From Magnetovibrionaceae bacterium (GTDB lineage: Bacteria; Pseudomonadota; Alphaproteobacteria; Rhodospirillales; JBMYSY01), in NCBI GenBank assembly GCA_049603795.1, contig JBMYSY010000006.1:307-64306 (forward strand): 64,000 bases of DNA. Direction: 5' to 3'. This document shows, piece by piece, positions 841-58,574 of the stretch (within the stretch, counting starts at the first letter, position 1; each line of letters starts with the position of its first letter). The notes under the pieces are model-generated. The model did no database searches, was not told the DNA's origin, and worked only from the letters and a program-made list of their open reading frames with translations. A program made the translations under genes and the position numbers.

Positions 841-1003
841 GGCCCCCACATACGGAAAGCGACGGCTTTTCGCAACAGGAGTCGGCAGAAAGGCTTTTCT
901 GAGGCGCGATGAGCGGCTAATTCAAGGTCGGTCACCGTGCCGCTGGATTGGGTCCCGGAGTGGGCTTCCGGGGCGGACTTCGCGCTGAGAGGGAAGAAGC
1001 GAA

Positions 1004-2491: not shown

Positions 2492-2573
2492 GAATTGGCT
2501 CGACGCGATGAAACGGTTTCAAAGGGCAGCATATCACGTCGGGAAGGGTTGAAGAGATGCCAAGAGGTTTAAC

Positions 2574-3464: not shown

Positions 3465-3482
3465 CGGTCCTATGGTCCCCGC

Positions 3483-4355: not shown

Positions 4356-7198
4356 GCGGACTGTTTGGCTTGGCTTTTTTGCAGATAGGGTGTCAGGTAT
4401 TTTCCGGTGTAACTGGCCGGTTCCGCTGCCACCTCTTCCGGCCGGCCCGCTGCCACCAGCTGGCCCCCTTTCGAGCCGCCTTCGGGGCCGAGGTCGATGA
4501 TCCAATCGGCGGTCTTGATGACCTCCAGGTTGTGTTCGATCACCAGGACCGTGTTGCCCTGTTCGACCAGGGTGTGCAGCACCTCGAGCAGCTTGCGCAC
4601 GTCTTCGAAATGCAGGCCCGTGGTGGGTTCGTCCAGGATGTAGAAGGTCTTTCCGGTGGAGCGGCGGCTGAGTTCCTTGGACAGCTTCACCCGCTGCGCC
4701 TCGCCGCCGGAGAGTGTTGTCGCCTGTTGGCCGAGGTGAATGTAGCCGAGGCCAACCTTTTGTAAGGTCACCATCTTGTCGCGGATGGCGGGGACCGCCT
4801 TGAAGAAATCCACCGCTTCATCGACCGTGAGGTCCAGCACGTCGGCGATGGATTTGCCCCGGAAGGTGATATCGAGCGTTTCCCGGTTGTAGCGCTTGCC
4901 CTTGCACTGGTCGCACTGGACGTAGACGTCGGGCAGGAAGTGCATCTCGATCTTGATCACGCCATCGCCCTGGCAGGCCTCGCAGCGTCCGCCCTTGACG
5001 TTGAAGGAGAACCGGCCTGGCTTGTAACCGCGCGCCTGGGACTCCGGCAGACCGGCAAACCAATCGCGGATCGGCGTGAAGGCTCCGGTATAGGTCGCCG
5101 GGTTGGAGCGGGGGGTGCGACCGATGGGGCTCTGGTCGATGTCGACCACCTTGTCGATCAGTTCCAGGCCCTTGAGGCTGGCGTGTTCTCCCGGGTGCTC
5201 CCGCGCACCGTTCAACCGACGCGCCAGGGCCTTATAGAGGGTTTCGATCACCAGGGTCGACTTGCCGCCGCCGGAGACGCCGGTGACGCAGGTAAAGGTG
5301 CCAAGCGGGAAATCAACGTCGATGCCGTTCAGGTTGTTCGCCGTTGCCCCCTTCAGCTTAAGGGCCTTGGTCTTCTTGATCGGGCGGCGCTTTGCGGGCA
5401 GGGGAACTTCTCGCGCGCCGGTCAGATACTGGCCGGTCAGGCTGGCGGGGTTGGCCATGACGTCGGCAGGTACGCCTTGAGCGACCACCTTGCCGCCGTG
5501 CACCCCGGCACCGGGACCCATGTCCACCAGGTAATCGGCCTTGCGGATGGCGTCTTCGTCGTGCTCGACCACGATGACCGTGTTGTCGAGGTCGCGCAGG
5601 CGGGTGAGGGTTTCCAGCAAGCGATCATTGTCGCGTTGGTGCAGGCCGATGGAAGGCTCGTCCAGAACATAAAGCACACCGGTGAGGCCGGAGCCGATCT
5701 GGGAGGCAAGACGGATGCGCTGACTTTCGCCGCCCGACAGGGTGCCGGAAGACCGCGACAGCGTCAGGTATTCCAGGCCCACGTTGCGCAAGAACCCAAG
5801 ACGCTCGTTGATCTCCCGCAGAATCCGCCTAGCGATTTCCTGATCCTTGGCCCCCAGTTTGTCTTCGAGTGCCAGGAACCAATCGCCCGCCTGATCGATG
5901 GAGAAGTCGGTGACTTCCGAGACATGCAGGCCGGCGATTTTGACGGCAAGCGCCTCGGGTTTAAGCCGGGCCCCGCCGCAGGCCTCGCAGGGGGCAACGG
6001 TCTGGAAGCGGGAAAGTTCGTCCCGGACCCAGTTGGAATCGGTTTCCCGCCAGCGCCTTTCCATATTCGGAATAACCCCTTCAAAGGGCTTGCGGACCTC
6101 ATAGGAGCGGATGCCATCGTCATAGCGCATCAGGACCGTCTCGCCGCCGGAGCCATAAAGAATGGCATTCCGGACCGCTGCGGTGAGCTTTCCAAAAGGC
6201 GTCGTGAGCTTGAAGTCATAATGCTTGGCGAGGCCTTCCAGCGTCTGGCCATAGTACTTCGACGAGGAGTTGGCCCAGGGCGCGATGGCACCGGATTTCA
6301 GGCTGATGGTGTCGTCCGGCACGACCAGATCGGGATCGAAAAACATCTCGGTTCCCAATCCGTCGCAGGCCGGGCAGGCACCGAAAGGGTTGTTGAAGGA
6401 AAACAGCCGGGGTTCGACCTCATCAATGGTGAAGCCGGAGACCGGACAGGCGAATTTGGCCGAAAAGGTGATGCGCTCTTCCGTGTCCGCGTTGTCCATG
6501 AAGACAAGACCGTCGGCCAGGTCGAGCGCGGTCTCCAGGCTGTCTGCGAGGCGGGTTTCCAGGCCTTCGCGGACCACAAGCCGGTCCACCACCACCTCGA
6601 TATCGTGTTTGACCTTTTTGTTCAGGGCGGGCACCTCGTCCAGGTCGTAAAGTTCTCCATCGACCCGGACACGCTGGAAGCCGCGCTTGGCAAGCTCGGC
6701 CATTTCCTTTTTGTATTCGCCTTTGCGGCCCCGGACGATGGGGGCCAGCAGATAGAGCCTTGTTCCTTCCTCCAAGGTCATAACCCGATCAACCATCTGG
6801 CTCACGGTCTGGCTTTCGATCGGCAAGCCGGTCGCGGGCGAATGGGGCACGCCAACGCGGGCCCAGAGCAGGCGCATATAGTCGTAGATCTCGGTCACCG
6901 TACCGACGGTCGAACGTGGGTTGCGGCTGGTTGTCTTCTGTTCGATGGAGATGGCTGGCGACAGGCCTTCAATGGCGTCAACATCCGGCTTCTGCATCAG
7001 TTCCAGGAACTGTCGCGCATAGGCGGATAGGCTTTCCACATAGCGCCGCTGGCCCTCGGCATAGATCGTATCGAAGGCGAGCGAGGACTTGCCCGACCCG
7101 GAAAGCCCGGTGATCACTGTCAATGTATTGCGGGGAATATCCAGGCTGACATCGCGCAGATTATGTTCCCGCGCGCCGCGGATAATGATCTTGTCCAT
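4352..7198 (-). CDS. uvrA: excinuclease ABC subunit A
   Basis: 948 aa. [37 protein letters not shown], two ABC ATPase modules and zinc-finger Cys motifs. Unambiguous UvrA. Confidence 0.98.
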
Positions 7199-7741
7199 GG
7201 AGATAACGCTTTCGCCTAGATGCGGCCTTCAGATGGCCAATACGGGATGGAGGGCGGGATCGGGAGAACGGTACGGGACTGAAATCGAAGAGCAACCCGA
7301 ATTTCGACGCCAGGCCACCTGCTGGTCTCGGTAATATGGGCTTTCAAGCCTGGGATGGAAAGCTTCGCACAAGCCAGTGGTTGTCAATAGCAACAATGAA
7401 GCCAGGGTTGTGGAAAACCTCGTGGATGAAAACACCTAAGGCGCTGGTACCACGTCAAAAAGACCAAAGCGAAAGTCCGGAGGCCAAAAAGCGTAAAATC
7501 TATAGTGCATTGATTTTAAAGACGAAAAATATCCAATATCATAAATTCGTAACGAGAAATTTCTGAACCCCGGAATGGCCGACTCCCCGGCTCCGACATG
7601 TGGAAAGTGTTCACACTGTCGGGGGCTTGTAGCCGTCTTCAACCGCCATGTCACAAAACGGGAACTCTCTGAAACGCAACTGAAAAGGTCCGGTATAGCC
7701 TTCGTGCGGAGGTCTCGGTTGTCGGCTTGAAAGTCAAATTT

Positions 7742-7756
7742 GTTCGTTTTTTGTTC
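7742..7756. promoter_or_regulatory. alphaproteobacterial-type LexA (SOS) box GTTC-N7-GTTC
   Basis: GTTCGTTTTTTGTTC read directly in the uvrA-ssb divergent intergenic region, about 147 nt upstream of the ssb ATG. It matches the GTTC-N7-GTTC direct-repeat consensus described for Alphaproteobacteria. Confidence 0.6.
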
Positions 7757-7902
7757 TTGAGTTGAGTGAGCTTTTCGGTCAGGGTTCCGGTTCGGGTTTC
7801 CGACTGGTCGGAGGCGAGGTGCCGCGTTAACCTTTTCTCCGACAGCTTGGCTTCGATTCGGGCCGGGCTTTACAAAAATTGAAAGCGTCGAGAGGGCAGA
7901 TC

Positions 7903-8424
7903 ATGGCTGGCAGCGTGAACAAGGTGATTTTGGTGGGCAATCTGGGCCGCGACCCGGAGGTCCGGCATTCCCAGAATGGCGCGAAGATCGTCAACTTCTC
8001 CATCGCCACCTCCGAGAGCTGGAACGACAAGGCCTCGGGCGAACGGCGCGAAAAGACCGAATGGCATCGTATTGTTGTGTTTAACGAGCGCATTGCCGAC
8101 GTGGTCGAACGCTACGTACGCAAGGGCTCAAAAGTCTACGTCGAGGGTTCCCTGCAGACCCGCAAATGGCAGGGCCAGGATGGTCAGGAGCGTTACACGA
8201 CCGAGGTGGTGATTGATCGCTTCAAGGGCGAATTGACCATGCTGGACAGCCGCAACGCCGGCGGCAGCGGGGGCTACGCCTCCGGGGACCCTGGACCGAG
8301 CGATCCTTACGGCGATTCCTACGGCGGTCCGTCTTCGGGCGGCGGCGGCGGCGGTTCCCAGCCCTCCGGTCCGTCGGGCGGCGCACGCCCAGGTGCCGAT
8401 CTGGACGACGAAATTCCGTTCTGA
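7903..8424 (+). CDS. ssb: single-stranded DNA-binding protein
   Basis: [41 protein letters not shown].., Gly-rich tail ending DDEIPF. The ATG at 7903 has an AGAGGG Shine-Dalgarno sequence. The track ORF starts 24 nt earlier at TTG. Confidence 0.95.
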
Positions 8425-8426
8425 CT

Positions 8427-9215
8427 ATGGGCCAGACGACAGGAACCAAGTTTTACGATGGCCAATTGCCCGCAGGCGCTGACTCCTGGGAGACTGTGCG
8501 CGACTCTCTCCCAAGGTCCCTGCTTGAAAAGTACGAGGTGCATAGTTTCCGAAACGCCGCCATCGTTTTAGGCCAAGCGCTAGCTGACGATTTCGATGAA
8601 ATTGCTGAGGCTCTTGCCCGCTTCAATCTCACGACGGATATGATAAGGACTGCCGGTGGAAATGAGTCAGCTATTCCAAAGGCGTTTAGCGAAGTCTTGA
8701 GGCCTTTGGGTTGGCAGGAGACCAAGATACAAGGGGACTTGTTAGTTCGAATAGAATCCGTCCAGGGAACTGGAAATGCTCGAAGGAAAGTAACGGATAC
8801 AGTTACAAAAGAGAATTTTTTGGATGGTCATAAAATTGATTACGTTAAGAACCGCATAGCATTTGACCTAGAGTGGAATAGTAAAGATCAGACATTTGAC
8901 CGCGACCTGTATGCGTTTAGCGCTTTTTTTCAATGTGGCATCATTGATGCGGCTGTTTTGGTTACACGGTCGGCGAGCTTGAATCCAGTTTTTCAAGATC
9001 TTGGACATTCGCTAACGGCTACAGGCGAAGTTGAAACAAATCGGTCTGGTGAGCCTAGGCTGGTGAAAGGAAAATTCGGGGCTAGTACAACCTGGATGGG
9101 GAAGCTCCTCTATCGTTTGAATGCTGGTAGAAATGGTGGTTGCCCGGTGCTAGCCGTCGGTATCTCTCCAGCTTGTATCTCCGATTTGGAATTGGGAGTT
9201 CAAGATGACCAATAA
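8427..9215 (+). CDS. type II restriction endonuclease, BglII/BstYI-like
   Basis: Core HKIDYVKNRIAFDLEWNSKD (D-X8-D-X-E) and C-terminal LNAGRNGGCPVLAVGISP parallel the BstYI segments TDFVKDRVAIEVQFG and IRQGRGVPAVPLVLIGVAP as I recall them. Low-GC gene overlapping a methylase gene. Confidence 0.6.
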   Translation: MGQTTGTKFYDGQLPAGADSWETVRDSLPRSLLEKYEVHSFRNAAIVLGQALADDFDEIAEALARFNLTTDMIRTAGGNESAIPKAFSEVLRPLGWQETKIQGDLLVRIESVQGTGNARRKVTDTVTKENFLDGHKIDYVKNRIAFDLEWNSKDQTFDRDLYAFSAFFQCGIIDAAVLVTRSASLNPVFQDLGHSLTATGEVETNRSGEPRLVKGKFGASTTWMGKLLYRLNAGRNGGCPVLAVGISPACISDLELGVQDDQ

Positions 9216-9834
9216 GGCTGCCGTTGATCTCCATGCCTCTCTAGAAGGACTGTCTTTCTCTACGATTTTAGCTGATCCTCCGTGGAGATTTCAGAACAGA
9301 ACAGGAAAGATGGCCCCGGAGCACAAGCGGCTGAACCGCTATGACACGATGACCTTGGAAGATATTTGTGGATTGCCAGTCGAACAGTACGCGAACGACC
9401 CTTCCCACTTATATTTATGGGTTCCGAATGCCCTTTTGCCTGATGGTTTGGCTGTAATGGAAGCCTGGGGGTTTCAGTATAAGTCCAATTTGGTTTGGCA
9501 TAAGATTAGAAAAGATGGTGGAAGCGATGGGCGCGGTGTTGGATTTTACTTCAGGAATGTAACTGAACTCGTACTTTTTGGCGTGCGAGGAAAAAACGCG
9601 AGAACGTTGCCCCCCGCTCGGAGCCAAGTAAATTTGCTGGCGACAAGGAAGCGTGAGCATTCCAGAAAGCCGGATGAATTGTATGACATCATTGAAGCCT
9701 GCAGCTCTGGTCCACGACTGGAGCTATTCGCGCGCGGACGTCGGGAGGGATGGCACCTTTGGGGCAATGAATCCGATCATTATGAGATCAATTGGGAGAC
9801 CTATTCCCATCACAGTCAGGTTGCCGCTACTTGA
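9205..9834 (+). CDS. MT-A70 family DNA methyltransferase (probable N6-adenine)
   Basis: ILADPPWRFQNR (DPPW catalytic motif), ..LYLWVPN.., ..HSRKPDELYDIIE.., LFARGRREGWHLWGNE. Overlaps the endonuclease gene by 11 nt. Confidence 0.8.
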   Translation: MTNKAAVDLHASLEGLSFSTILADPPWRFQNRTGKMAPEHKRLNRYDTMTLEDICGLPVEQYANDPSHLYLWVPNALLPDGLAVMEAWGFQYKSNLVWHKIRKDGGSDGRGVGFYFRNVTELVLFGVRGKNARTLPPARSQVNLLATRKREHSRKPDELYDIIEACSSGPRLELFARGRREGWHLWGNESDHYEINWETYSHHSQVAAT

Positions 9835-9983
9835 ATGAAATCGGCCCGTAACACCCCTGTCACGTTGTTGTCTGGCCGGGCCGCGCCATGCTATTTTACC
9901 GCCTCTTTGAAGGGGCGAATCCGGCTGTGATTTCGGATGGCCGAGCTCCTTTTTCAATAGCTTGATTTGATTGGACTTTTTTC

Positions 9984-12800
9984 GTGACGTCACCGCCCGA
10001 TACGCCACCGGAAGATCCCTCCGGCGCCAGCCCCAGTGGATCCGGCTTCGATCCCGTCACCATCGAAGAGGAAATGCGCAAGTCCTACCTCGATTACGCC
10101 ATGAGCGTGATCGTGAGCCGGGCCTTGCCGGACGCGCGTGACGGTCTGAAACCTGTCCACCGCCGTATCATCCATTCCATGAACGAAAACGGCTTCGACG
10201 CGACGAAGCCCTATCGCAAATCGGCGCGTATCGTGGGCGAGGTCATGGGTCGCTATCACCCCCACGGTGATCAGGCGATCTATGACGCCATGGTTCGTAT
10301 GGCCCAGCCCTTCGCCATGCGCCTGATGCTGGTTGATGGCCAGGGCAACTTCGGCTCCATGGACGGCGATAAGCCGGCTGCCATGCGCTATACCGAGGCC
10401 CGCATGGCCAAGGCGGCCCACGCCCTGATCGACGATATCGACATGGATACGGTCGATTTTCAGCCGAACTACGACGAAACGGCGCGCGAACCCATCGTGC
10501 TGCCGGCCCGCTTCCCGAACCTTCTGGTCAACGGAGCCGGTGGTATCGCCGTCGGCATGGCGACCAATATCCCCCCGCACAATCTGGGCGAGATGATCGA
10601 TGCCTGTAAGGTGCTGATCGAACGGCCCGAGACGACCATCGAAGAATTGATGGAAACCATCGTGCCGGGCCCCGACTTCCCGACCGGGGGGCTGATCCTG
10701 GGTCGGACCGGTATCCGGAACGCTTTCATGACCGGGCGCGGGTCCGTGATCATGCGCGGCAAGACCGAGATCGAAGATATCCGAAAAGACCGCCAAGCGA
10801 TCATCGTCACCGAGGTCCCCTATCAGGTGAACAAGGCGCGCATGATCGAAATCATGGCCGAATGCGTGCGCGACAAGAAGATCGAGGGCATTTCGGATTT
10901 GCGTGATGAGTCCGACCGCCACGGCATCCGCGTCGTGATCGAGATCAAACGTGACCACATGGCCGAGGTCGTGCTCAACCAATTGTTCCGCTTCACGCCG
11001 TTGCAGACCACCTTCGGGGTCAACATGCTGGCGCTCGACGGTGGTCGGCCGCGCATGATGAACCTGAAGGAAATGCTGGTCGCCTTCATCGCCCACCGCG
11101 AAGAAGTGATCCGTCGCCGGACGGCCTATCTGCTGGGCAAGGCCCGCGACAAGGCCCACGTCCTGGCCGGACTCGCGGTGGCCGTCGCCAACGTGGACGA
11201 GGTGATCCGACTGATCCGCGAAGCCGCCGACCCGCAGGAGGCGCGCGAGGCCCTGATGGCGCGGAACTGGCCCGCCCAAGAAGTTGAACCCTTCATTGCC
11301 CTGCTAGATGACCCGGGCCACGCGGTCGTCGATGGCCATTACAAGCTCTCGGAAGCTCAGGCCAAGGCGATTCTGGACCTACGTCTGCACCGCCTCACGG
11401 GCCTGGAGCGCGATAAGATCGGCGAGGATCTCAAGAAGCTCTGCGACGAGATTGAAGAACTGCTGCACATCCTGGGTTCCCGCGAGCGCCTCTACGAGGT
11501 GATGGTCGAAGAGTTGGACGAGGTGCGGGAGAACTTCGCGGACGAGCGCCGGACCCAGATCGAAGAGAATGAATTCGAACACGATATCGAGGACCTGATC
11601 CAGCGCGAGGACATGGTCGTGACCGTGTCCAATGCCGGTTATATCAAACGTGTACCGGTCTCCGCCTATCGTGCGCAAAAGCGCGGCGGCAAGGGCCGGG
11701 CCGGCATGGCGACCAAGGACGAGGATTTCGTCGAACAGGTCTACATCGTCAATACCCACACGCCGGTGCTGTTCTTCTCGTCCGCCGGCATGGTCTACAA
11801 GCTGAAGGTCTACCGCCTGCCGCTCGGCAACCCGCAATCAAAGGGCAAGGCCTTGGTGAACCTGCTGCCGTTGAGCGAGGGCGAGACGATTTCCACCGTC
11901 ATGCCCCTGCCGGAAGACGAGGACAGCTGGAATGATCTCTTCGTGCTCTTTGCCACTGCCAGCGGCGGTATCCGCCGCAACCGGCTGTCCGATTTCACCA
12001 ACGTCATGGCCAACGGTAAAATTGCCATGAAGCTGGATGAGGGCGACTGGTTGGTTCGGGTCCGGACGGCGAGCGAAGACGATGATGTCCTGATCGCGAC
12101 GGCCGGCGGCAAGTGCATTCGCTTCCCCGTGCCCGATGTCCGGGTCTTTTCCGGTCGGACTTCGACCGGTGTCCGGGCGATCAAACTCGCCAAGGATGAC
12201 CAGGTGATCGGTCTTTCATGCGTGAAGCATTTCGAGGTCGAGACCGAACAACGCGATGCCTATCTGCAAAGCCGCAATGCCGCACGGCGGCTTCAGGGCG
12301 GCGACTATACGGATCGGGCCGGCGATCTGGCGAAGGACCGGGAACTGGCTGCGCGGCTCGACGAACCTGCGTTCCAGGAAATGCTGGCATGCGAAGAATT
12401 TCTACTGACGGTTACGGATGACGGCTTCGGCAAGCGGACATCGGCCTACGAATACCGCACAACAGCCCGCGGTGGCCAGGGGATCAGCAACATGGACCTG
12501 AAGCGTTCCAGTGGCGAAGGTGCTGGAATTGCTTCGGTTTTCGTGGTCCTTGATGAAGATCAGATCGTCATGGTTTCCAACAGCGGCCAGATCATTCGCT
12601 GCCCGGTGGACGGCATCAGCTTCTCCGGTCGAGCCGCCCGCGGGGTGACGTTATTTAACGTCGCTGAGGGGGAAAGGGTTGTTTCCGTCTCGCGTTTGCG
12701 AGATATGGAAGGGGATGACGAGGGTGAAGGAGCTGAAGAAGAGGCCGAGTCCGCTTCTGACGCAGCAGAGCCATCGCCATCAGGCGAACCGAGCGAATAG
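9984..12800 (+). CDS. gyrA: DNA gyrase subunit A
   Basis: 938 aa. [41 protein letters not shown]..; acidic C-terminal tail. GTG start as in the track. Confidence 0.97.
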
Positions 12801-12933
12801 GCGCAAGATCAGCGAAGAAGGCGCGAGTATGCTGATCAGCCTGAAGTGAAAAGTGACCTGGGATGACATCCGGGGCACGACCGCGGGGGAAAGGGTGCGG
12901 TCGGGTTCCTTCACCTGGGTGGGAGCGACCTCC

Positions 12934-13512
12934 ATGACATCGAACCCGAATCCGGCCCCGCATGAGACGGCGGCCCCCGACCGCGCCCACAGAGGTGTCT
13001 ATCCCGGTACCTTCGATCCGCCGACGAACGGCCATATGGATATCATTCGCCGTGCAACCCGGCTGGTTGACAATCTGATTGTCGGCGTCGCCGCCAACCC
13101 GGCCAAGGCACCGCTTTTCAGCTTGGAAGACCGCTGTTCCATGGTGCGCGCCGAAATCAACCGGATGGATATCCGCGACGGCACCCTGATCGAGGTGGTG
13201 CCTTTCGACAACCTGCTGATGGATTTTGTTATGCAGCAGGGCGCGAATGTGATCGTGCGGGGCTTACGTGCCGTCTCCGATTTTGAATACGAGTTTCAGA
13301 TGGCCGGTATGAACGCCCGACTGAACCGTTCGGTCGAGACAGTCTTCCTGATGGCCTCTGATCGCCATCAATTCATTTCAAGCCGATTCGTTAAGGAAAT
13401 CGGACGTTTGAACGGTGATATCTCCGAGTTCGTCAGCGCTGACGTCCGAGAGATCCTGATGGAACGCTTCCGCCTCATCAATGGCAAAGGCCGGGGGTCA
13501 AACGGGGCTTGA
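12934..13512 (+). CDS. coaD: phosphopantetheine adenylyltransferase
   Basis: GVYPGTFDPPTNGHMDIIRRA..SDFEYEFQMAGMN..ISSRFVKEI. The ATG at 12934 has a GGGAGC Shine-Dalgarno sequence. The track ORF extends 27 codons further upstream. Confidence 0.9.
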   Translation: MTSNPNPAPHETAAPDRAHRGVYPGTFDPPTNGHMDIIRRATRLVDNLIVGVAANPAKAPLFSLEDRCSMVRAEINRMDIRDGTLIEVVPFDNLLMDFVMQQGANVIVRGLRAVSDFEYEFQMAGMNARLNRSVETVFLMASDRHQFISSRFVKEIGRLNGDISEFVSADVREILMERFRLINGKGRGSNGA

Positions 13513-13589
13513 AGTCTCGGGCCTGGATGGATAATGTCCAGCCTCCGAACGGCACCGGGCTTCATTTGCACCGTCGTTTCGGCCCATGA

Positions 13590-13665
13590 GCGCGCTTAGC
13601 TCAGCTGGTAGAGCAACTGACTTTTAATCAGTAGGTCACAGGTTCGACTCCTGTAGCGCGTACCA
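13590..13665 (+). tRNA. tRNA-Lys (anticodon UUU)
   Basis: Hand-folded cloverleaf: acceptor GCGCGCT/AGCGCGT, D arm GCTC-AGCTGGT-AGAGC, anticodon stem ACTGA/TCAGT with loop CTTTTAA, T arm ACAGG-TTCGACT-CCTGT, encoded CCA. Confidence 0.9.
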
Positions 13666-13673
13666 ATCGGAGA

Positions 13674-13705
13674 GGGGCTTGGGCTGCGTGTCCAGGCCCC
13701 TTTTT
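13674..13705 (+). terminator. rho-independent terminator after tRNA-Lys
   Basis: GGGGCTTGG-loop-CCAGGCCCC followed by TTTTT. Confidence 0.6.
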
Positions 13706-13935
13706 CGTGTGCGGCTGTCAGGTTAATTGGCTCGAGAGAGGTGGCTAAGCACTCGGGGGCGACTTTTTTGACCCGCATATTAGAAAAATCTGTTAGCGTC
13801 TGAGTTGTTGTCGCTTTCGGCAAATCCGGATGGTGGATCTGGCGAGCACATATTGCCCCAGGTATCATCCATCCAGATAGAGTGCATAGCCCAGTAAATG
13901 GGATAGGGTTGCCAGGCATCATCGGGGGATGGGGT

Positions 13936-16113
13936 ATGCCGAGCCTTCTTAGACTTTTAAGGTCCGTGGTCTTCGCCGGAACCTTGTCGTTCGCCATCTG
14001 GCCAGCCTGCGCAGTCAAGGCGAATCCAACCTTTCAGGATGTGTTCGACAAGCACAACTCGGTCATGCTGTTGATCGATCCGCAGACCGGAAGCATTGCC
14101 GATGCCAATCCGGCTGCCGCTGCGTTCTATGGGTATAGTCGCGATGACTTGCGGACCATGTTTATTCAGAATATCAATCAGTTGACGGCGGAGCAGGTGA
14201 AAGAAGAGAGGCAACTCGCCAAGAGCGAAGGTCGGAACTTCTTCATTTTTCGTCATCAACTGGCCAATGGTGATATTCGAACGGTCGAGGTTAAATCGGT
14301 ACCCTTTACATTCGATGGCCGCGTTCTGCTGCATTCGATCATCCGTGATATTTCACGCGAGCGGAGTATTGCCAATGAGCTCTGGCATTATCAATCGCGG
14401 CTGGAAGACATGGTCCAACAGCAGACGGAGGAGATCAGAAAGAAGACGGATATCCTCGTCGTGATCCTGGGTTCGGGTGCCCTTGTCTTATCGGTCTTTG
14501 TTCTTCTGCTCTTGCTGTCCCTGCGCCGACATCACCAAGCCGAGCGACTCCTTTTGGAAAATCGCGAACACTACCGAAGCATGGTCAATGGATTGGAGGC
14601 CCACTTCCTCTATAAGCACGATACCGAGGGCGTTTTTACCTATGTCTCTCCGTCGATTACGCCGCTGCTCGGATATTCGGAGCAAGAGTTCTTAACGTCG
14701 TTTGAGACCTACCTGACGGATTCCCCGCTGAACCATGCCTGTATCAAGCATACGGAAGGCAGCATTCGGGGCGAACAACAGCCGCCCTATATTGTGGAGA
14801 TTTTTCACAAGGACGGCAGCATCCGAACCCTGGAGGTTTTGGAACGCCCCGTGCGAGACCTCGACCAGAGGGTGGTTGCGGTCGAAGGCATTGCTCAGGA
14901 CATAACCGAGCGCAAACAGGCTGAGGCGATGATTCTTCAGGCGAAGGATGACGCTGAAAAGGCCAACAAAACCAAATCCCAGTTCCTGGCTTCCATGAGC
15001 CATGAACTCCGAACACCATTGAATGCTGTTCTCGGTTTTGCCCAGTTGCTGCAGTTTGACGTTCGCTACCCGTTGAATGCGGTTCAGAACGAACATGTGG
15101 AGAGCATTCTGTCCGGAGGTCGGCACCTGCTGGGGCTGGTCGATGAGATTCTTGAACTGTCAAAAATCGAGGCGGATCAACTGACGATCACCCTTGAGGA
15201 AGTTTCTGCGCGGGAGGTTATTCGTGACAGCATTGCGCTGGCCAGTTCTCTCAGTGTGGAGCGAAACGTCGAGATCATCGACAATACAGAGGAGACCCTG
15301 TCGGCCGCATTGAGGACGGACCGCACGCGGTTGAAGCAGGTTCTTGTCAACCTGCTGTCCAATGCCATCAAGTTCAACGATGACGGCGGCACGGTTATGA
15401 TCGATAGCGAAGAACTTCCGAACGGCTACCTCAGAATTGCGGTGGCGGATACGGGTATCGGAATTGCGCCTGAAGACAAAGAAAACGTCTTTCAGTTGTT
15501 TCACCGATTGGACGCCGATCCTGGTGTTGCGAGGGAAGGAACGGGGATCGGCCTGACCATCACGAAATCCATCCTGGAGCATATGGCCGGTTCAATCAAT
15601 TTTAGTAGCGAGGTCAATAAAGGAACCAAATTTTGGGTCGAAATTCCTTTGTTCAGCAATGATGACGTCATGATTTGGACGGAATCCATGGTTACAGGCG
15701 TTGATGCCATCGATTCTGATCATAAAGTATTGATGGGTTTGTTGAACCGGATCAGTAAAAGTTCCGTCGATTCGGATGGGATTGATGATATTGTCTCTGA
15801 ACTTGTTGAGTACACGAGCTATCACTTCTCGCGTGAAGAAGCGATCATGGAAATTTGTGAGTATCCCGGTCTGGAAGACCATTTGGAAATCCACAAGTCC
15901 ATTCGCGCTCAGGTCGCGGGCCTTGCCGACAAGTGGCGCGAGGACAAGGGCGAAGATGCCTTGTCGAACCTCCACAAGTTTATGCAGGACTGGCTCTATT
16001 CGCACATCATCCATGAAGACACGAAAATCGAGGGGCATGCGAAGGGGAAGAAGAGAGAGATCAAGCACGCCCTGGAAACCTTGACTTTCCTGGCGGAGGA
16101 CCGGGTCGCCTGA
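13936..16113 (+). CDS. PAS sensor histidine kinase with C-terminal hemerythrin-like domain
   Basis: Signal/TM segment, two PAS-like regions, a TM segment, H-box SHELRTPLNAVLGF, N/G boxes (NAIKFN, GTGIGL). The tail carries DSDHKVL..YHFSREEAIM..HLEIHKS..WLYSHIIHEDTK (H, HxxxE, H, HxxxxD iron ligand pattern). ATG at 13936. Confidence 0.8.
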   Translation: MPSLLRLLRSVVFAGTLSFAIWPACAVKANPTFQDVFDKHNSVMLLIDPQTGSIADANPAAAAFYGYSRDDLRTMFIQNINQLTAEQVKEERQLAKSEGRNFFIFRHQLANGDIRTVEVKSVPFTFDGRVLLHSIIRDISRERSIANELWHYQSRLEDMVQQQTEEIRKKTDILVVILGSGALVLSVFVLLLLLSLRRHHQAERLLLENREHYRSMVNGLEAHFLYKHDTEGVFTYVSPSITPLLGYSEQEFLTSFETYLTDSPLNHACIKHTEGSIRGEQQPPYIVEIFHKDGSIRTLEVLERPVRDLDQRVVAVEGIAQDITERKQAEAMILQAKDDAEKANKTKSQFLASMSHELRTPLNAVLGFAQLLQFDVRYPLNAVQNEHVESILSGGRHLLGLVDEILELSKIEADQLTITLEEVSAREVIRDSIALASSLSVERNVEIIDNTEETLSAALRTDRTRLKQVLVNLLSNAIKFNDDGGTVMIDSEELPNGYLRIAVADTGIGIAPEDKENVFQLFHRLDADPGVAREGTGIGLTITKSILEHMAGSINFSSEVNKGTKFWVEIPLFSNDDVMIWTESMVTGVDAIDSDHKVLMGLLNRISKSSVDSDGIDDIVSELVEYTSYHFSREEAIMEICEYPGLEDHLEIHKSIRAQVAGLADKWREDKGEDALSNLHKFMQDWLYSHIIHEDTKIEGHAKGKKREIKHALETLTFLAEDRVA

Positions 16114-53941: not shown

Positions 53942-54775
53942 ATGATCAGAGTTGCAACGGAAAAAGCAGAGTCGTCCTGGTTGGGCAGACGGATCGCGGG
54001 CCTTTGGGTGCGACCGGAATCCCTCCAGGCACCCGAACCCATCGTCCTGCTGCACGAAGCGCTTGGCAGTATTGGTCAGTGGACGAAGCGTCGCAGAGAC
54101 GCGGGCCCAATCGATGTCGCGTCCGAACTGGCAGCCGCCACAGGCCGCGCCGTCCTTGCCTTCGATCGGTTGGGCCATGGGGCTTCGGATGGTTTTGCAG
54201 CCGAACGGCACGACGCCTATCTGCGCGAAGAGGGCGCACGGGCGCTTCCCTCTATCCTGGACGGCTTCGGGGTGGAGCGGGCCGTGCTGCTGGGCCATTC
54301 GGACGGCGGGTCAATAGCGCTGGTTTTTGCCGGGCACCACCCCGACCGTTGTATCGGCCTGGTCTCGGAAGCCGCCCATGTGATCGTCGAAGACATCACG
54401 CTCGCCGGAATCAGGCAGGCCGAGGATGTCTATGCCCGGCCTGACCAGCGTCTGGCACAAGGTCTCGCCAAGTATCACGGTGACAAGACCGATGCCCTGT
54501 TCCGTGCCTGGTCAGAGACCTGGACGAGAGCCTCTTTCTCGGACCTGGACCTCTGTCCGGACATTGAGCCCGCGACCGCACCTGCGCTGATTATCCAGGG
54601 TGTGGATGACGAATACGGCTCCCCGGAACAGGTTCGCCTGATCGCGCAGCATTACGGCAAGGCAGGTGGCGGCGGGGCTCAGACCTGGCTCGTGCCCGAT
54701 TGCCGCCACATCCCGCACTTCGAGGCGCATGAGATCGTGCTCGGCCGCATTGCAGCTTTCATCAAGGCGCTTTAA
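53942..54775 (+). CDS. alpha/beta hydrolase
   Basis: VLLHEALGS.., GHSDGG nucleophile elbow, ..CRHIPHFE. Confidence 0.8.
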   Translation: MIRVATEKAESSWLGRRIAGLWVRPESLQAPEPIVLLHEALGSIGQWTKRRRDAGPIDVASELAAATGRAVLAFDRLGHGASDGFAAERHDAYLREEGARALPSILDGFGVERAVLLGHSDGGSIALVFAGHHPDRCIGLVSEAAHVIVEDITLAGIRQAEDVYARPDQRLAQGLAKYHGDKTDALFRAWSETWTRASFSDLDLCPDIEPATAPALIIQGVDDEYGSPEQVRLIAQHYGKAGGGGAQTWLVPDCRHIPHFEAHEIVLGRIAAFIKAL

Positions 54776-55692
54776 CTGGCCCTAATGCTGGCGGCGTAGC
54801 GGGTGCCGAGGTAGGTGCTGATCAGGATGATCGCAGCACCCGTCCCGGTTTCGAGCGTGATTTCTTCTGAGAGCAGCAGCACGGCGAACAGCGCGCCGAA
54901 GATCGGCTCCGTGCCCATCAGGAAGCTCACCCTCGTCGGGTTGGTGAAGCGCACGGCGGCGTTCTGGATGTAGAAGGCACCCAGCGTGCAGAACCCTGCC
55001 AGGAACAGCAGTGCCGTCCAGAAGGCCTGATCGGAGGGAAGCGAGAGCCCTTCCGGTCCATGGAGAAACAGGGCCGTCCCGCCGGTTATGACGGCGACCA
55101 CGACGAACTGCACGGTGCTAAGGCTGGTGGACGTCAGCGGACGATCCTTCAGCAGGCGGTTGGTGGAGATCACCATGACCGCGCGCAGGATGGCGGCACC
55201 TAAGATCAGAAAGTCGCCGGGATTGAGCTCAAAACTGCTGCGGTAGACCATCAGTCCGGTACCAAAGCAGGAACACAGAGCACAAAGCAGGATGGTCGTC
55301 GGCGGACGTCGTCCCTCCAGCAAGCTGTCGAGGACTGGCGTGATAATGATACAAAGCGAGATCAGGAATGCCGCATTCGTTGCAGTTGTGTAGAAAACCC
55401 CAAAGGTTTCGGCAACGAAAATCATCGACAGGATCACGCCCAGGAGAGCGCCGCGCAGGATGTCAGCGATCGCAGCTTCGGCCAATTCCTTGTAGGTGAG
55501 GGGCAAAAGTACGATCAGGGTGATCGCGAAACGGAAAAAGATCAGCGATAGCACGGGTACGAAGATCAGGGCTTCTTTGGCGACGGCATAGCTCGCCCCC
55601 CAGACACAGGCTACAAACAGCAGGCTGATATCAGCCAAAAGCAACTTCTTCGCATCCGAAATGCGAGCCAAAGCAATCGACATTTTTGGCAT
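54772..55692 (-). CDS. DMT-superfamily (EamA) transporter
   Basis: 10 TM segments, duplicated EamA-type layout, WGASYAV near the N-terminus. Confidence 0.8.
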   Translation of the reverse strand: MPKMSIALARISDAKKLLLADISLLFVACVWGASYAVAKEALIFVPVLSLIFFRFAITLIVLLPLTYKELAEAAIADILRGALLGVILSMIFVAETFGVFYTTATNAAFLISLCIIITPVLDSLLEGRRPPTTILLCALCSCFGTGLMVYRSSFELNPGDFLILGAAILRAVMVISTNRLLKDRPLTSTSLSTVQFVVVAVITGGTALFLHGPEGLSLPSDQAFWTALLFLAGFCTLGAFYIQNAAVRFTNPTRVSFLMGTEPIFGALFAVLLLSEEITLETGTGAAIILISTYLGTRYAASIRAS

Positions 55693-55789
55693 CCCCCTTT
55701 AAGACCAGCCCTCGCCCCCAGCCCGAAACGGCACATTGGAGAGAAAAGTCGATCTAAATTTCTATTTAAAATGGCAAAAGTGAGCCTGT

Positions 55790-56560
55790 TTAGCGCTTCG
55801 TGAAGGCTATGACCAGGACATCTCGGTAGGCGGTCGGTTTTCGCGGATCTTTACGAGCGACCGCTGAGACCCCGTGCATTACACGTGCGTCGGCACCAAT
55901 CATGATGTCGCACGGATCGTTCATGGTGAAGGTCGCGAGCGTCTTGCGGTTGTTATCCGTAATTTTGGTTTCGCCGCCGGTCACGTTGCTGCGGCGGACC
56001 AACATCGAACAGATGAAATCAACGCCGTCCCTGTGCAGCCCTTCCGGGCTGGGTTCACCCTCAGCTTCCCCAGCAATGATGCGGTACGGATGCAGCTTGA
56101 TATTCCAGGCGGCATGTTCGGAAGCTTTGGTATAGGCCGCCCCCAGCCAATGGATGAGACCCATAAAGAAAGGGTGCTCCAGAAAGGTCTCTTCAATCGG
56201 TTCAAAGTGCCGCTTGAAGCCACCATTTAGGGAGTTGATGTAAGCGGGCTGTTCGTAGGCTTCATGAGCGAGCAGGGTCAGCGCGTGGCTCTCGTTATCA
56301 TAATGCAGTTGGCTGTAGCGGCGGAATCGATAGGTACCACCATCGCGCATGTGTGTGTCGAGCAGCAGGTGCTCCCAATAGCGGGCAAACGTCGCGAATT
56401 GGGCCTCATTGAAGAAAGACCAGAGCTGACGGTTGACCTTGCCCTTGCCATGCCAGAAGCCGCTGATTCTAAGGGCGTCGGCAAGATCTTTGCCGTGCGC
56501 GACCGAAGCCTTGAAAGATGGTTTGCCGGGATTGGCGGCAGTTAGAGAAGAAAGGGTCAT
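55790..56560 (-). CDS. 2OG-Fe(II) dioxygenase family protein (PF10014-like; amino-acid hydroxylase type)
   Basis: GLHRDGVDFICSML (HxD), ..MHGVSAV distal His. Length and layout resemble the 2OG-Fe_Oxy_2 family. 4-nt overlap with the upstream ArgG-like gene. Confidence 0.6.
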   Translation of the reverse strand: MTLSSLTAANPGKPSFKASVAHGKDLADALRISGFWHGKGKVNRQLWSFFNEAQFATFARYWEHLLLDTHMRDGGTYRFRRYSQLHYDNESHALTLLAHEAYEQPAYINSLNGGFKRHFEPIEETFLEHPFFMGLIHWLGAAYTKASEHAAWNIKLHPYRIIAGEAEGEPSPEGLHRDGVDFICSMLVRRSNVTGGETKITDNNRKTLATFTMNDPCDIMIGADARVMHGVSAVARKDPRKPTAYRDVLVIAFTKR

Positions 56561-57798
56561 CCTGCGATCCTCCAGGCGGTGGGCTGCGCAACATCGAGCC
56601 CGCCTTGGGGCTGAATGAGGTCAGACAGGCTGCGGGCGCCGCGCAGGCGCGTAATCTCTAGCTCCCACTGGTCGCGGTCGGTCAGGTAGAGCGGCTTTTC
56701 TGCCCGGATGGAGATCGGCAGGCAGGATTGATGCGTGACTCGAAGCGTCACCGAACCCGTGACCCGCTGGCAGAGATGATCAATGCCGGCTTGCGCGGCC
56801 TGCTTCAGGTTGCTGTACCAACGGCCCTCGACGGCTTCTGTGGTCCAGATTGGCTCCAGGGATTGCTTGAACGCGATTGAGGCCGCATCAAGCGTTGCCA
56901 TCTCCAGTTGCCGTAGCGTGTCCATGGTGACGAGCGCGGCGGGAGCTTCGCGGACCTCCAAAACTTTTTCACCGGCATACAGGTGTTCCAGGCCGACAAA
57001 GCGGCCGTGGCCGAAGGCGCCGATTTCCTGATTCAGGCGGCTGATGGCGGTCTGGAAGTCGATGGATTCGCCATCCAGAGAGACCAGATTGCCGACCTCG
57101 AATCCGAGCGTGATTTCGATCGGGGCCAACGTCGGGCTGTGCTTGGTCCAGGTAAAAGCTTCCTCAGGGATTTCAAACTGCTCAGGGTTGTCCAGGGGGC
57201 CTGATTCAAACTCGCGACACCACAGATTGGCATCGCCGCTCAGTTTGCGTTCGGCGAAGAAACTCAGGCCCTGGGTGGCCAATTCGGCAGCCTTCTCTTC
57301 CCGGGTGACGGCGCTGTATTCGTAAGGGCTGCCATAAAAACCCTCGAAGCCACCATATTCAATGGCCTGGTTCAGGCGTCGAAGACTGTTCTGCGACTGA
57401 TTTGCTGTATGGAAGATTGCAACCGCGCCGACTGATGCGGCATGCCTTCTGGCCGCTTCAACGATGACCGGTCGGCTAAGCGAAGAACTGACGGGATAGC
57501 TGCCGAGATAACGCGCCTGGGCGCGAAGCGCCGGACGTACGGCCGTTTCCGTGAAAGCCGCCTTGAGGTCTTTTTCGATCAGCTTGGCACCGAAAGATGT
57601 GGCCGTTTTCCTCAGCTTAAAGGCATCGACACCTTCGCCCAGGTCGACACAGAGGGCGTGAACCTGCGAGTAGCCTGCTTTTTGAAGTTTATACAATAAA
57701 AAAGCACTATCCAGTCCACCGCTAAACAACGTAACAATGGGTTCGTCTTTGAAATCAAAATCAATTATATCTTGAAAGCTTCTAATTTTTGTCGGCAT
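56557..57798 (-). CDS. argininosuccinate-synthase-like PP-loop ATP pyrophosphatase (ArgG paralogue)
   Basis: IVTLFSGGLDSAFLL PP-loop. SSLSRPVIV, FHTANQSQNS, LSGDANLWCREFESGPLDNP and GRFVGLEH..EVREAP parallel ArgG blocks. The ATG at 57798 has a GGGGG Shine-Dalgarno sequence; the longer ORF reaches 57852. Confidence 0.65.
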   Translation of the reverse strand: MPTKIRSFQDIIDFDFKDEPIVTLFSGGLDSAFLLYKLQKAGYSQVHALCVDLGEGVDAFKLRKTATSFGAKLIEKDLKAAFTETAVRPALRAQARYLGSYPVSSSLSRPVIVEAARRHAASVGAVAIFHTANQSQNSLRRLNQAIEYGGFEGFYGSPYEYSAVTREEKAAELATQGLSFFAERKLSGDANLWCREFESGPLDNPEQFEIPEEAFTWTKHSPTLAPIEITLGFEVGNLVSLDGESIDFQTAISRLNQEIGAFGHGRFVGLEHLYAGEKVLEVREAPAALVTMDTLRQLEMATLDAASIAFKQSLEPIWTTEAVEGRWYSNLKQAAQAGIDHLCQRVTGSVTLRVTHQSCLPISIRAEKPLYLTDRDQWELEITRLRGARSLSDLIQPQGGLDVAQPTAWRIAG

Positions 57799-58080
57799 TT
57801 CAATTCCCCCAGCGATCATAGCCAAGAAAATTTTTTTCCGGCTTTCGGTCATTCGTTCGGCGGGGTTTATATTTCAAAAATATTTAGAGTCAATTGATTA
57901 AATTTATTTGGTCTGCCTAACTTTAAAATGTAAGATAATATTATTGATTTTTTTCTATGCAGAACTTTGGTTTTTGAGGGGCAAAATTTACCTTAAAATT
58001 TTTGGGGGTTTAGGTGGGGCGGGCCAGCGAATGGCGGCCTGCATGGTTTTTCTACCGTCGTGGCGAACCGACGGGCAAAC

Positions 58081-58114
58081 AAAAGGCCCGGGGCATTGCT
58101 GCTCCGGGCCTTTT
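58081..58114 (-). terminator. rho-independent terminator after ndk (symmetric A/T flanks)
   Basis: AAAA-GGCCCGG-loop-CCGGGCC-TTTT. Confidence 0.65.
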
Positions 58115-58151
58115 CGCCGGGTGGCTTAGAAAGTCTACGGGGTCTGACGTA

Positions 58152-58574
58152 TCAGCCGACCACTTCGCAGGCCGAGAAGAAGTAGGCGATCTCGATGGCT
58201 GCGTTTTCCGGGCTGTCGGAACCGTGCACGGAGTTTTCCTGCACGTTCTGGCCGTGGGCCGCGCGGATCGTGCCTTCGTCGGCGTTGGCCGGGTTTGTGG
58301 CACCCATGATTTCGCGGTTCTTCAGGATCGCGCCTTCGCCTTCCAGGACCTGGACGACCACGGGGCCGGAGCACATGTAGTCGGTCAGTTCGTCGAAGAA
58401 GGAGCGTTCCTTGTGAACGGCGTAGAAGCCTTCCGCCTGGGACTTGGTCAGGTGGACACGCTTTTGCGCCACGATGCGCAGTCCGGCGTCTTCAAAAAAA
58501 GTGTTGATCTTGCCGGTGATGTTCCGCGCGGTGGCGTCCGGCTTGATGATGGATAGGGTGCGCTCGATTGCCAT
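58152..58574 (-). CDS. ndk: nucleoside diphosphate kinase
   Basis: [22 protein letters not shown]. Confidence 0.97.

What the first reader, a model, noticed from the sequence alone, without database searches (positions are those of the whole stretch)
54772..57852. ArgG-like PP-loop ligase + PF10014-type 2OG-Fe dioxygenase + EamA exporter: candidate small-molecule pathway
Three minus-strand genes lie in series. The first is an argininosuccinate-synthase paralogue (SGGLDS PP-loop and ArgG-like substrate blocks, but divergent). It overlaps by 4 nt a 2OG-Fe(II) dioxygenase of the family that, as I recall, includes free amino-acid hydroxylases. A DMT/EamA transporter gene follows after a 97-nt gap. 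No other arginine-biosynthesis gene is present. A plausible function is ATP-dependent adenylation and condensation on a ureido or carboxyl substrate, plus hydroxylation of an amino acid, then export. That would make a modified amino acid or a small siderophore- or toxin-like metabolite.
Basis: inference. Interest (0 to 1): 0.6.

Follow-up and report, generated by a model that had tools for sequence, protein, structure and literature searches.

The report
Nitrile-amino-acid synthesis and export cassette
These three genes are an intact copy of a rare, horizontally spread cassette (an ATP-dependent enzyme that turns an amide into a nitrile, an iron/2-oxoglutarate oxygenase and an exporter) that most likely makes and secretes a still-unidentified cyano amino acid, and is not an arginine-pathway enzyme.

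Summary
In detail: three intact minus-strand genes with a 4-nt overlap and a 97-nt gap. The "ArgG paralogue" is not an argininosuccinate synthase. The real argG lies on another contig. This gene passes NCBIfam NF038212 (argG_rel) and fails every argG model. It is 51% identical, without gaps, to ArtA (PDB 9LEH/9LEI), a fungal ATP-dependent nitrile synthetase that dehydrates a side-chain amide. It keeps ArtA's three reported amide-binding residues, groups with ArtA in a tree, and its model superposes on ArtA at 1.6 Å.

The second gene is a PF10014 Fe(II)/2OG oxygenase with an invariant H-x-D…H triad and Arg. Its nearest characterised relatives are HrmJ/BelL, IDO and TqaL. The third is an EamA exporter.

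In 73 of the 80 best related loci (about 40 genera, 4 phyla) the oxygenase follows the ArgG-like gene directly. In 70 the exporter is adjacent too. Fused versions exist. No other enzyme is conserved. The cassette was found in none of 460 sampled relatives, so it was probably acquired horizontally.

Most likely function: make and export an oxidised cyano amino acid, probably from Gln or Asn. The product is unknown. I found no paper on the cassette. This scan met the same module before on other DNA.

The parts
56557..57798 (-). ArgG-like PP-loop enzyme, an ArtA-type nitrile synthetase (NF038212 argG_rel). It is 413 aa from the likely start M19. The longest ORF extends to 57852 (431 aa).
   Evidence: NF038212 scores 529 bits against a cut-off of 425, and all argG equivalog models fall below their cut-offs. 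PDB 9LEI/9LEH 'nitrile synthetase' gives E 4e-122 with 51% identity over 381 ungapped residues. Q154/S205/D207 correspond to ArtA Q146/S197/D199. The AlphaFold model has pLDDT 91 and matches ArtA at TM 0.95 and rmsd 1.6 A. The RBS GGGGGA lies before the ATG at 57798.
55790..56560 (-). PF10014 Fe(II)/2-oxoglutarate oxygenase, translationally coupled to the upstream gene through an ATGA overlap.
   Evidence: PF10014 gives E 1e-60. H176, D178, H229 and R246 are invariant in 20 cassette homologues. The model has pLDDT 90.6. The nearest solved folds are 3pl0, 8w8h, HrmJ, IDO, BelL and TqaL.
55693..55789 (-). 97-nt intergenic spacer, with a GGGGGA ribosome-binding site near its 3' end, before the exporter gene.
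   Evidence: Read directly from the sequence. No Rfam match and no terminator-like site was found inside it.
54772..55692 (-). EamA/DMT-family transporter, the presumed exporter of the product. Its stop codon overlaps the stop of the convergent alpha/beta-hydrolase gene (shared TTAA at 54772-54775).
   Evidence: Two EamA repeats, E 1e-27. It is 36-59% identical to the EamA genes that flank the enzyme pair in 70 of 80 related loci. The stop-codon overlap is visible in the sequence.
57853..58010 (-). Very AT-rich upstream region (28.5% GC in a 60% GC window), the presumed promoter of the cassette. It is bounded upstream by the ndk terminator hairpin at 58081-58114.
   Evidence: Composition, sequence, hairpin I3. 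The sigma-70 consensus scan found no site, so the promoter itself is inferred.

Best explanation
This is a self-contained, horizontally acquired three-gene cassette that makes and exports a small nitrile-bearing amino acid. Step 1 is inferred from homology to ArtA. The ArgG-like enzyme binds ATP at its PP-loop and adenylates the carbonyl oxygen of a primary carboxamide on an amino-acid side chain, most likely L-glutamine or L-asparagine or an oxidised form of one. It then eliminates AMP to leave a nitrile (amide to nitrile, ATP to AMP + PPi). Unlike ArgG, it has no second, aspartate-like substrate. Step 2 is inferred from family membership and an intact catalytic site. The translationally coupled PF10014 Fe(II)/2OG oxygenase oxidises an unactivated C-H bond of the same amino-acid skeleton. 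Hydroxylation is the default outcome. Whether it acts before or after nitrile formation is unknown. Step 3 is inferred. The EamA transporter exports the product. What is shown here: the gene structure, the family assignments, the catalytic residues, the presence of the true argG elsewhere, and conservation of the trio as a unit across phyla. What is not shown: the substrate, the product and the direction of transport.
For: (1) This is not ArgG. It scores below the cut-offs of TIGR00032, NF001770, NF010392 and NF003385 but above that of NF038212. The true argG (641 bits) is on contig 21. (2) It is ArtA-like. PDB 9LEI/9LEH give E 4e-122 and 51% identity with no gap. ArtA's amide-contacting Q146/S197/D199 (PMC13060819) are conserved here as Q154/S205/D207, and they are invariant in a 25-sequence family alignment. 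The family separates from true ArgG with 100% SH-aLRT support. The window protein lies in a 100%-supported clade that also contains ArtA. The model fits ArtA (TM 0.95, 1.6 A) better than any ArgG (TM <= 0.85, 4-6 A). (3) ArtA/NitB are reported to catalyse only the amide-to-nitrile step on amino-acid side chains (PMC13060819). The A. lentulus protein that is 91% identical to ArtA lies 2.7 kb from an NRPS gene. (4) The oxygenase has an intact and invariant H-x-D...H + R site and a confident DSBH model. (5) Linkage is strong. The pair is adjacent in 73 of 80 loci and the exporter joins them in 70 of 80, across about 40 genera of Proteobacteria, Actinobacteria, Firmicutes and Cyanobacteria. No other enzyme is conserved. 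ArgG-like::PF10014 fusions exist. The two enzyme trees show the same groupings. (6) Independent support for nitrile chemistry comes from fungi. Homologues in Botrytis and Colletotrichum sit with a 2OG oxygenase and a nitrilase-family (CN_hydrolase) gene; an MFS transporter is present in the Botrytis locus only.
Against: I know ArtA's substrate only second-hand, from one citing preprint. S205 and D207 are also conserved in true ArgG, so only Q154 and the rebuilt HTANxSQNS loop are specific to the family. 51% identity does not guarantee the same substrate or even the same reaction outcome. The ArgG-derived pocket was built for the longer citrulline, so Gln or Asn is a guess. EamA proteins can import as well as export. 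Divergent LysR regulators, present in 34 related loci but absent here, are also typical of catabolic operons.
Confidence: 0.6

Rival explanations
1. The ArgG-like enzyme is still a ligase. It adenylates a ureido or carboxyl group and condenses it with an amine nucleophile to form a guanidino or amidino amino acid, which the oxygenase hydroxylates before export.
For: The fold and many ArgG active-site residues are retained: SGGxDS, R127, H148, N155, S205, D207, N209 and E216. The ancestral chemistry of the superfamily is adenylation followed by nucleophilic attack.
Against: The ArgG loop HGATGKGNDQ is rebuilt to HTANQSQNS in every family member. From memory, this loop helps bind aspartate. The only characterised members, ArtA and NitB, are reported to do dehydration only. 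The window protein lies in the same 100%-supported clade as ArtA.
Confidence: 0.1
2. The enzyme keeps a ureido substrate (citrulline-like). Without a nucleophile it eliminates AMP to give an N-cyano (cyanamide) amino acid in place of a C-nitrile. The oxygenase and exporter act as in the main model.
For: The pocket descends from a citrulline-binding pocket. Many residues outside the aspartate loop are shared with ArgG. Elimination from citrullyl-AMP would be chemically analogous to ArtA's reaction. This is inference.
Against: ArtA's reported substrate type is a carboxamide side chain. The motif blocks shown are nearly identical between ArtA and the window protein. No cyanamide amino acid from bacteria is known to me.
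Confidence: 0.07
3. The module is for uptake and catabolism or detoxification. EamA imports an amide or amino-acid analogue, which the two enzymes then transform.
For: Divergent LysR regulators sit next to the cassette in 34 loci from 22 genera. DMT transporters can work in either direction. In Burkholderia and Trinickia the ArgG-like gene sits with an FAA-family hydrolase, and in Trinickia also with an aldehyde dehydrogenase.
Against: Spending ATP to make a nitrile is not a sensible catabolic step. No nitrilase, amidase or aminotransferase is conserved with the bacterial trio. In Salmonella diarizonae and in A. lentulus the enzyme sits beside an NRPS, which is a biosynthetic setting.
Confidence: 0.08

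Closest known systems
ArtA / NitB, the argininosuccinate-synthetase-like nitrile synthetases of fungal auranthine-type pathways (PDB 9LEH, 9LEI; Zeng et al., ACS Catal 2025; Kishimoto et al., JACS 2025). I know both papers only through PMC13060819.
   Same: Same family (NF038212). 51% identity with no gaps. Same PP-loop and the same Q/S/D amide-contacting residues. Same clade in the tree. The model superposes at 1.6 A.
   Different: The closest homologue of ArtA lies 2.7 kb from an NRPS gene in Aspergillus. The window gene is instead coupled to a PF10014 oxygenase and an EamA exporter with no NRPS. The substrate and product of this bacterial cassette are unknown.
Argininosuccinate synthase ArgG (EC 6.3.4.5; TIGR00032, NF001770)
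   Same: Same two-domain fold and N-type PP-loop. About 25-30% identity.
   Different: It fails all ArgG model cut-offs. The HGATGKGNDQ loop is replaced. The genome has its own true argG and argH elsewhere.
HrmI/HrmJ and BelK/BelL. From memory, an N-oxygenase makes 6-nitronorleucine and the PF10014 enzyme HrmJ/BelL closes a nitrocyclopropane ring. PDB 9DQP, 9DQ0 and 8JMS.
   Same: The oxygenase belongs to the same Pfam family. The cassette profile matches HrmJ-ssa at 175 bits, nearly as well as the best hit 3pl0 at 193 bits. The logic of the pair is parallel: one enzyme installs a terminal electron-withdrawing group on an amino acid and a PF10014 enzyme acts on that amino acid.
   Different: Identity is only 25-39%, and HrmJ lies on a long branch outside the cassette oxygenases. 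The partner enzyme here is a nitrile synthetase and not an N-oxygenase. No NRPS follows.
IDO, L-isoleucine 4-hydroxylase, and related PF10014 free-amino-acid hydroxylases (PDB 6LNH; HilB, PMC3684760)
   Same: Same family, fold and metal site.
   Different: About 19% identity, E 1e-6. These enzymes are not paired with an ArgG-like enzyme.
QueC / ToyM, PP-loop nitrile synthetases that make preQ0 and toyocamycin
   Same: ATP-dependent nitrile formation on a PP-loop (HUP) domain. There is a weak QueC Pfam hit over the PP-loop.
   Different: They use a different subfamily and substrate (a deazapurine carboxylate). They carry out both amidation and dehydration with ammonia (PMC13060819). Fold match is only TM about 0.3-0.5.

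Membership tests
ArtA/NitB-type ASS-like nitrile synthetase (NCBIfam NF038212 argG_rel) | Scores above the curated cut-off of NF038212 | tested here: met
   529 bits against a cut-off of 425, covering model positions 1-379 of 381.
ArtA/NitB-type ASS-like nitrile synthetase (NCBIfam NF038212 argG_rel) | N-type PP-loop SGGxDS for ATP binding | tested here: met
   S44-G-G-L-D-S49. The motif is invariant in the family alignment.
ArtA/NitB-type ASS-like nitrile synthetase (NCBIfam NF038212 argG_rel) | Amide-contacting residues reported for ArtA (Q146, S197, D199) | tested here: met
   They correspond to Q154, S205 and D207 by the ungapped alignment to 9LEI. Only Q154 is family-specific, since ArgG has Gly there.
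ArtA/NitB-type ASS-like nitrile synthetase (NCBIfam NF038212 argG_rel) | Groups with ArtA and apart from true ArgG in a phylogeny | tested here: met
   The family/ArgG split has 100% SH-aLRT support. The window protein is in a 100%-supported 21-row clade that includes ArtA (quick search, no bootstrap).
ArtA/NitB-type ASS-like nitrile synthetase (NCBIfam NF038212 argG_rel) | ATP-dependent dehydration of a primary amide to a nitrile | not testable with these tools
   This needs an enzyme assay.
Argininosuccinate synthase ArgG | Scores above the equivalog cut-offs (TIGR00032 268 bits; NF001770 334 bits) | tested here: not met
   152 and 190 bits.
Argininosuccinate synthase ArgG | Conserved HGATGKGNDQ substrate loop | tested here: not met
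   HTANQSQNS occupies that position. About 30 positions switch between the family and true ArgG.
Argininosuccinate synthase ArgG | Provides the genome's ArgG function (sole copy) | tested here: not met
   A 641-bit true argG is on contig 21 and argH is on contig 23.
PF10014 Fe(II)/2OG oxygenase (IDO/HrmJ/TqaL family) | Pfam score above the gathering threshold, and a DSBH fold | tested here: met
   205 bits against 23.1. The model has pLDDT 90.6. The top 20 fold hits are all PF10014-type structures.
PF10014 Fe(II)/2OG oxygenase (IDO/HrmJ/TqaL family) | 2-His-1-carboxylate facial triad plus an Arg for the 2OG C5 carboxylate | tested here: met
   H176, D178, H229 and R246 are invariant in 20 cassette oxygenases. 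The role assigned to the Arg comes from general knowledge of the superfamily.
PF10014 Fe(II)/2OG oxygenase (IDO/HrmJ/TqaL family) | Acts on a free amino acid; reaction outcome (hydroxylation or cyclisation) | not testable with these tools
   This needs an assay.
EamA/DMT transporter | Two tandem EamA repeats | tested here: met
   Two matched stretches, E 1e-27.
Conserved ArgG-like / PF10014 / EamA cassette | Oxygenase gene directly downstream on the same strand, with the EamA gene adjacent | tested here: met
   The window order matches that of 50 loci in 31 genera. Overall 73 of 80 loci have the oxygenase and 70 of 80 have all three genes.

The most novel reading that the evidence does not exclude
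The PF10014 partner may not be a plain hydroxylase. Like its nearest characterised relatives HrmJ/BelL, which close a cyclopropane ring next to a nitro group, it could exploit the carbon made acidic by the new nitrile. That would give C-C ring closure or desaturation and yield a cyano-cyclopropyl or vinyl-nitrile amino acid. Such a product would be an undescribed class of secreted antimetabolite, made by a two-enzyme cassette that has spread among host-associated bacteria and apparently also into fungi.
Probability: 0.12. Interest if true: 0.8.

Novelty: new variant of a known kind. Interest (0 to 1): 0.55.

Why it matters
Few enzymatic routes to nitriles are known, and nitriles are valued warheads in drugs. 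The ASS-like nitrile synthetases were first characterised in 2025, in a fungal NRPS pathway. This locus shows the same enzyme type in a different and much commoner setting: a minimal, mobile cassette of two enzymes plus an exporter. The cassette occurs in rhizobia, Collimonas, Pseudomonas, Vibrio, Streptomyces, Paenibacillus and a cyanobacterium. Its product is not described in any paper I could reach. With only two enzymes and no other conserved partner, the pathway must start from a primary metabolite. That makes it unusually easy to reconstitute and a good route to a new non-proteinogenic amino acid and new biocatalysts. For genome annotation, it is a clear case where "argininosuccinate synthase" is the wrong name.

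Tried and rejected
(1) Literature. Only one preprint (PMC13060819) cites the ArtA and NitB papers. The JACS paper tried by DOI is not held and the ACS Catal paper was not looked up. No paper on the ArgG-like/PF10014/EamA cassette turned up. Several searches were swamped by 'acetonitrile' and 'cyanobacteria'.

(2) Empty-site and synteny test. I looked for the flanking hydrolase in 30 relatives. Homologues were only 33-43% identical, with no pntB or ndk next to them. The insertion site could therefore not be reconstructed.

(3) Mobile-element signatures. There are no meaningful flanking direct or inverted repeats and no integrase or transposase among the neighbouring ORFs.

(4) Riboswitch or leader that might name the substrate. 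There is no Rfam match in the cassette. The only hit is a sub-threshold ar35 match on the ndk terminator.

(5) The sigma-70 promoter scan found nothing.

(7) Placing HrmJ and 3pl0 among the cassette oxygenases. Both fall on very long branches and their position is unresolved.

(8) The idea that this is the housekeeping argG is rejected.

(9) A siderophore-type product is rejected as unlikely, because only two enzymes are conserved.


Full report
OBSERVATION. They are 56557..57852 (431 aa), 55790..56560 (256 aa) and 54772..55692 (306 aa). The first two overlap by ATGA, and a 97-nt spacer precedes the third. Pfam assigns Arginosuc_synth N- and C-terminal domains to the first, PF10014 (E 1e-60) to the second and two EamA repeats to the third. 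The first gene most likely starts at M19 (ATG at 57798). That start has a GGGGGA ribosome-binding site and agrees with the 413-aa gene call in the protein database. The neighbours are housekeeping genes: pntAB and an alpha/beta hydrolase on one side, and ndk, an amine oxidase and an ABC-F protein on the other.

NOT ArgG. The protein scores 529 bits on NCBIfam NF038212, 'argininosuccinate synthase-related protein', whose cut-off is 425. It falls well below the cut-offs of four argG equivalog models. The same genome has a true argG on contig 21 (641 bits against a cut-off of 334) and argH on contig 23. A tree of 57 family members and 6 true ArgGs separates the two groups with 100% SH-aLRT support on a very long branch. 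About 30 alignment positions are fixed differently in the two groups. The ArgG loop HGATGKGNDQVRFE becomes HTANxSQNSLRRLN in the family.

WHAT IT IS LIKE. The best match among solved structures is 9LEI/9LEH, 'nitrile synthetase ArtA', at E 4e-122. Identity is 51% over 381 residues without a single gap. An AlphaFold model (pLDDT 91) superposes on ArtA at TM 0.95 and 1.6 A. The best ArgG reaches TM 0.85 or less at 4-6 A. I could reach only one paper that discusses ArtA, the preprint PMC13060819. [quoted passage not shown] It places them in the context of the NRPS product auranthine. It also reports that Q146, S197 and D199 of ArtA contact the amide. Using the numbering offset in the crystal construct, these are Q154, S205 and D207 in the window protein. 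All three are conserved here and invariant in a 25-sequence alignment of bacterial and fungal members. S205 and D207 are shared with ArgG, so only Q154 and the rebuilt loop are family-specific. The crystallised ArtA is 91% identical to an Aspergillus lentulus protein whose gene lies 2.7 kb from an NRPS gene. In the tree the window protein pairs with a Magnetovibrio MAG (85% support). These two and a Bradyrhizobium sequence lie in a 100%-supported clade that also holds the rhizobial sequences and, nested among them, every fungal sequence including ArtA.

THE OXYGENASE. H176, D178 and H229 (the facial triad) and R246 are invariant in 20 cassette oxygenases from different genera. The model is confident (pLDDT 90.6). 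Its top fold matches are all PF10014-type structures. They are 3pl0 (Methylibium, uncharacterised), 8w8h, HrmJ (9DQP, 9DQ0), IDO (6LNH), BelL (8JMS) and TqaL (7EEH). A profile of the cassette oxygenases matches 3pl0 at 193 bits and HrmJ-ssa at 175 bits, far above IDO at 70 bits. In a tree the solved proteins sit on long, unresolved branches outside the cassette group, so none is an orthologue. From memory, HrmJ and BelL close a nitrocyclopropane ring on 6-nitronorleucine, TqaL forms an aziridine and IDO hydroxylates isoleucine. The family is therefore not restricted to hydroxylation.

LINKAGE. A pattern scan of one genome for each of 185,579 species found 316 loci that encode a relative. I examined the best 80. 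In 73 of them a PF10014 gene (100 bits or more) begins within 600 bp downstream on the same strand. In 70 an EamA gene is adjacent as well. Fifty loci from 31 genera have the window's order. Twenty loci, from Mesorhizobium, Rhizobium, Microvirga and Rhizorhapis, have the exporter upstream. The genera span Alpha-, Beta- and Gammaproteobacteria, Streptomyces, Paenibacillus and a cyanobacterium. Clustering all neighbouring ORFs showed no further conserved enzyme. The only other recurrent gene is a divergent LysR regulator, in 34 loci from 22 genera, and it is absent here. ArgG-like::PF10014 fusion proteins exist in Bradyrhizobium and Mesorhizobium. The oxygenase tree repeats the main groupings of the ArgG-like tree, and the closest relatives of all three window proteins are in the same genomes. 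The trio therefore travels as a unit. Exceptions show the enzyme in other settings: NRPS - ArgG-like - PF10014 - SerRS-like in Salmonella enterica subsp. diarizonae, and MFS - ArgG-like - FAA-hydrolase in Burkholderia paludis (the Trinickia locus shows ArgG-like - FAA-hydrolase with an aldehyde dehydrogenase). In Botrytis and Colletotrichum the homologue lies with a PF03171 2OG oxygenase, an AlaX-like protein and a nitrilase-family gene; an MFS transporter follows in Botrytis only. This independently points to nitrile chemistry combined with 2OG oxygenation.

ORIGIN. None of 60 genomes of the same order and none of 400 genomes sampled across the class has an NF038212 match above the cut-off. 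The cassette genes have slightly lower GC than their neighbours, 0.56-0.58 against 0.61-0.63. The 158 bp upstream are 28.5% GC. No repeats, integrase or tRNA mark the borders. No relative was close enough to show the empty site. Horizontal acquisition is thus well supported by distribution and only mildly supported by composition.

MECHANISM (inferred). The ArgG-like enzyme adenylates a side-chain carboxamide and eliminates AMP to leave a nitrile. The coupled Fe/2OG oxygenase oxidises the same amino-acid skeleton. EamA exports the product. Gln or Asn as the substrate is a guess. It rests on ArtA's reported chemistry, on the near identity of the conserved motif blocks between ArtA and the window protein, and on the absence of any enzyme that could supply an unusual precursor. 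The order of the two steps, the regiochemistry and the product are unknown.

NOVELTY. The enzyme family is known: NCBIfam has a model for it and ArtA/NitB were characterised in 2025. The cassette with a PF10014 oxygenase and an exporter is not described in any paper I could find. I could not read the two primary papers, and subscription literature is largely outside the library. This scan has already reported the same module on other DNA (e1-2998276, a fused and broken copy) and an NRPS-linked relative (e1-5263644). I reached ArtA independently before seeing those notes. The window's copy is an intact, ordinary member of the cassette.

Noticed in passing
L108 (Botrytis) 4391-15448; L096 (Colletotrichum) 1641-12785: Fungal homologues of the ArgG-like gene sit in a conserved cluster with a PF03171 2OG oxygenase, an AlaX-like (tRNA-synt_2c / tRNA_SAD) protein and a CN_hydrolase (nitrilase family) gene; an MFS transporter follows in the Botrytis locus only. 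In Aspergillus luchuensis the ArgG-like and AlaX-like parts are annotated as one 620-aa protein. An editing-domain protein beside a gene for an amino-acid analogue could be a self-protection device.
   Followed up: partly
Tree (rows FUN_*, ArtA_9LEI, L019, L020, L028): All 13 fungal sequences, including ArtA, form one clade (96% support) nested among alphaproteobacterial (rhizobial) cassette sequences. This suggests one bacterium-to-fungus transfer of the nitrile synthetase. Rooting relies on a very long outgroup branch.
   Followed up: partly
L045 (Salmonella enterica subsp. diarizonae) 30-11371: A 2646-aa NRPS (ending C-A-T-TE) is followed by an ArgG-like gene, a divergent PF10014 gene (34% identity) and a seryl-tRNA-synthetase-like gene. 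This is a likely NRPS pathway that uses the nitrile or oxidised amino acid as a building block.
   Followed up: partly
L037 (Burkholderia paludis) 6401-11144; L053 (Trinickia) 7986-11599: In this subclade the ArgG-like gene lacks a PF10014 partner and is followed by an FAA-hydrolase-family gene. Burkholderia has an MFS transporter upstream of it, and Trinickia has an aldehyde dehydrogenase after the hydrolase gene.
   Followed up: partly
window 57853-58010: A 158-bp tract of 28.5% GC lies directly upstream of the cassette in a 60% GC genome. It is the presumed promoter and a possible target of a xenogeneic silencer. No sigma-70 consensus site was found.
   Followed up: partly
window 58081-58114 (and 58077-58205, minus strand): The ndk terminator hairpin (15-nt arms, 4-nt loop) gives a sub-threshold Rfam match to the alphaproteobacterial sRNA ar35 (30.7 bits, gathering score 45). 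It is probably just the terminator.
   Followed up: no
window 54772-54775: The stop codons of the convergent alpha/beta-hydrolase gene and the EamA gene share the sequence TTAA, so there is no room for a terminator between them.
   Followed up: no
window 57799-57852 and 55684-55692: The longest ORFs overextend the likely starts. The ArgG-like gene probably starts at 57798 (M19) and the EamA gene at 55683 (M4). Each of these ATGs has a GGGGGA ribosome-binding site at normal spacing.
   Followed up: partly
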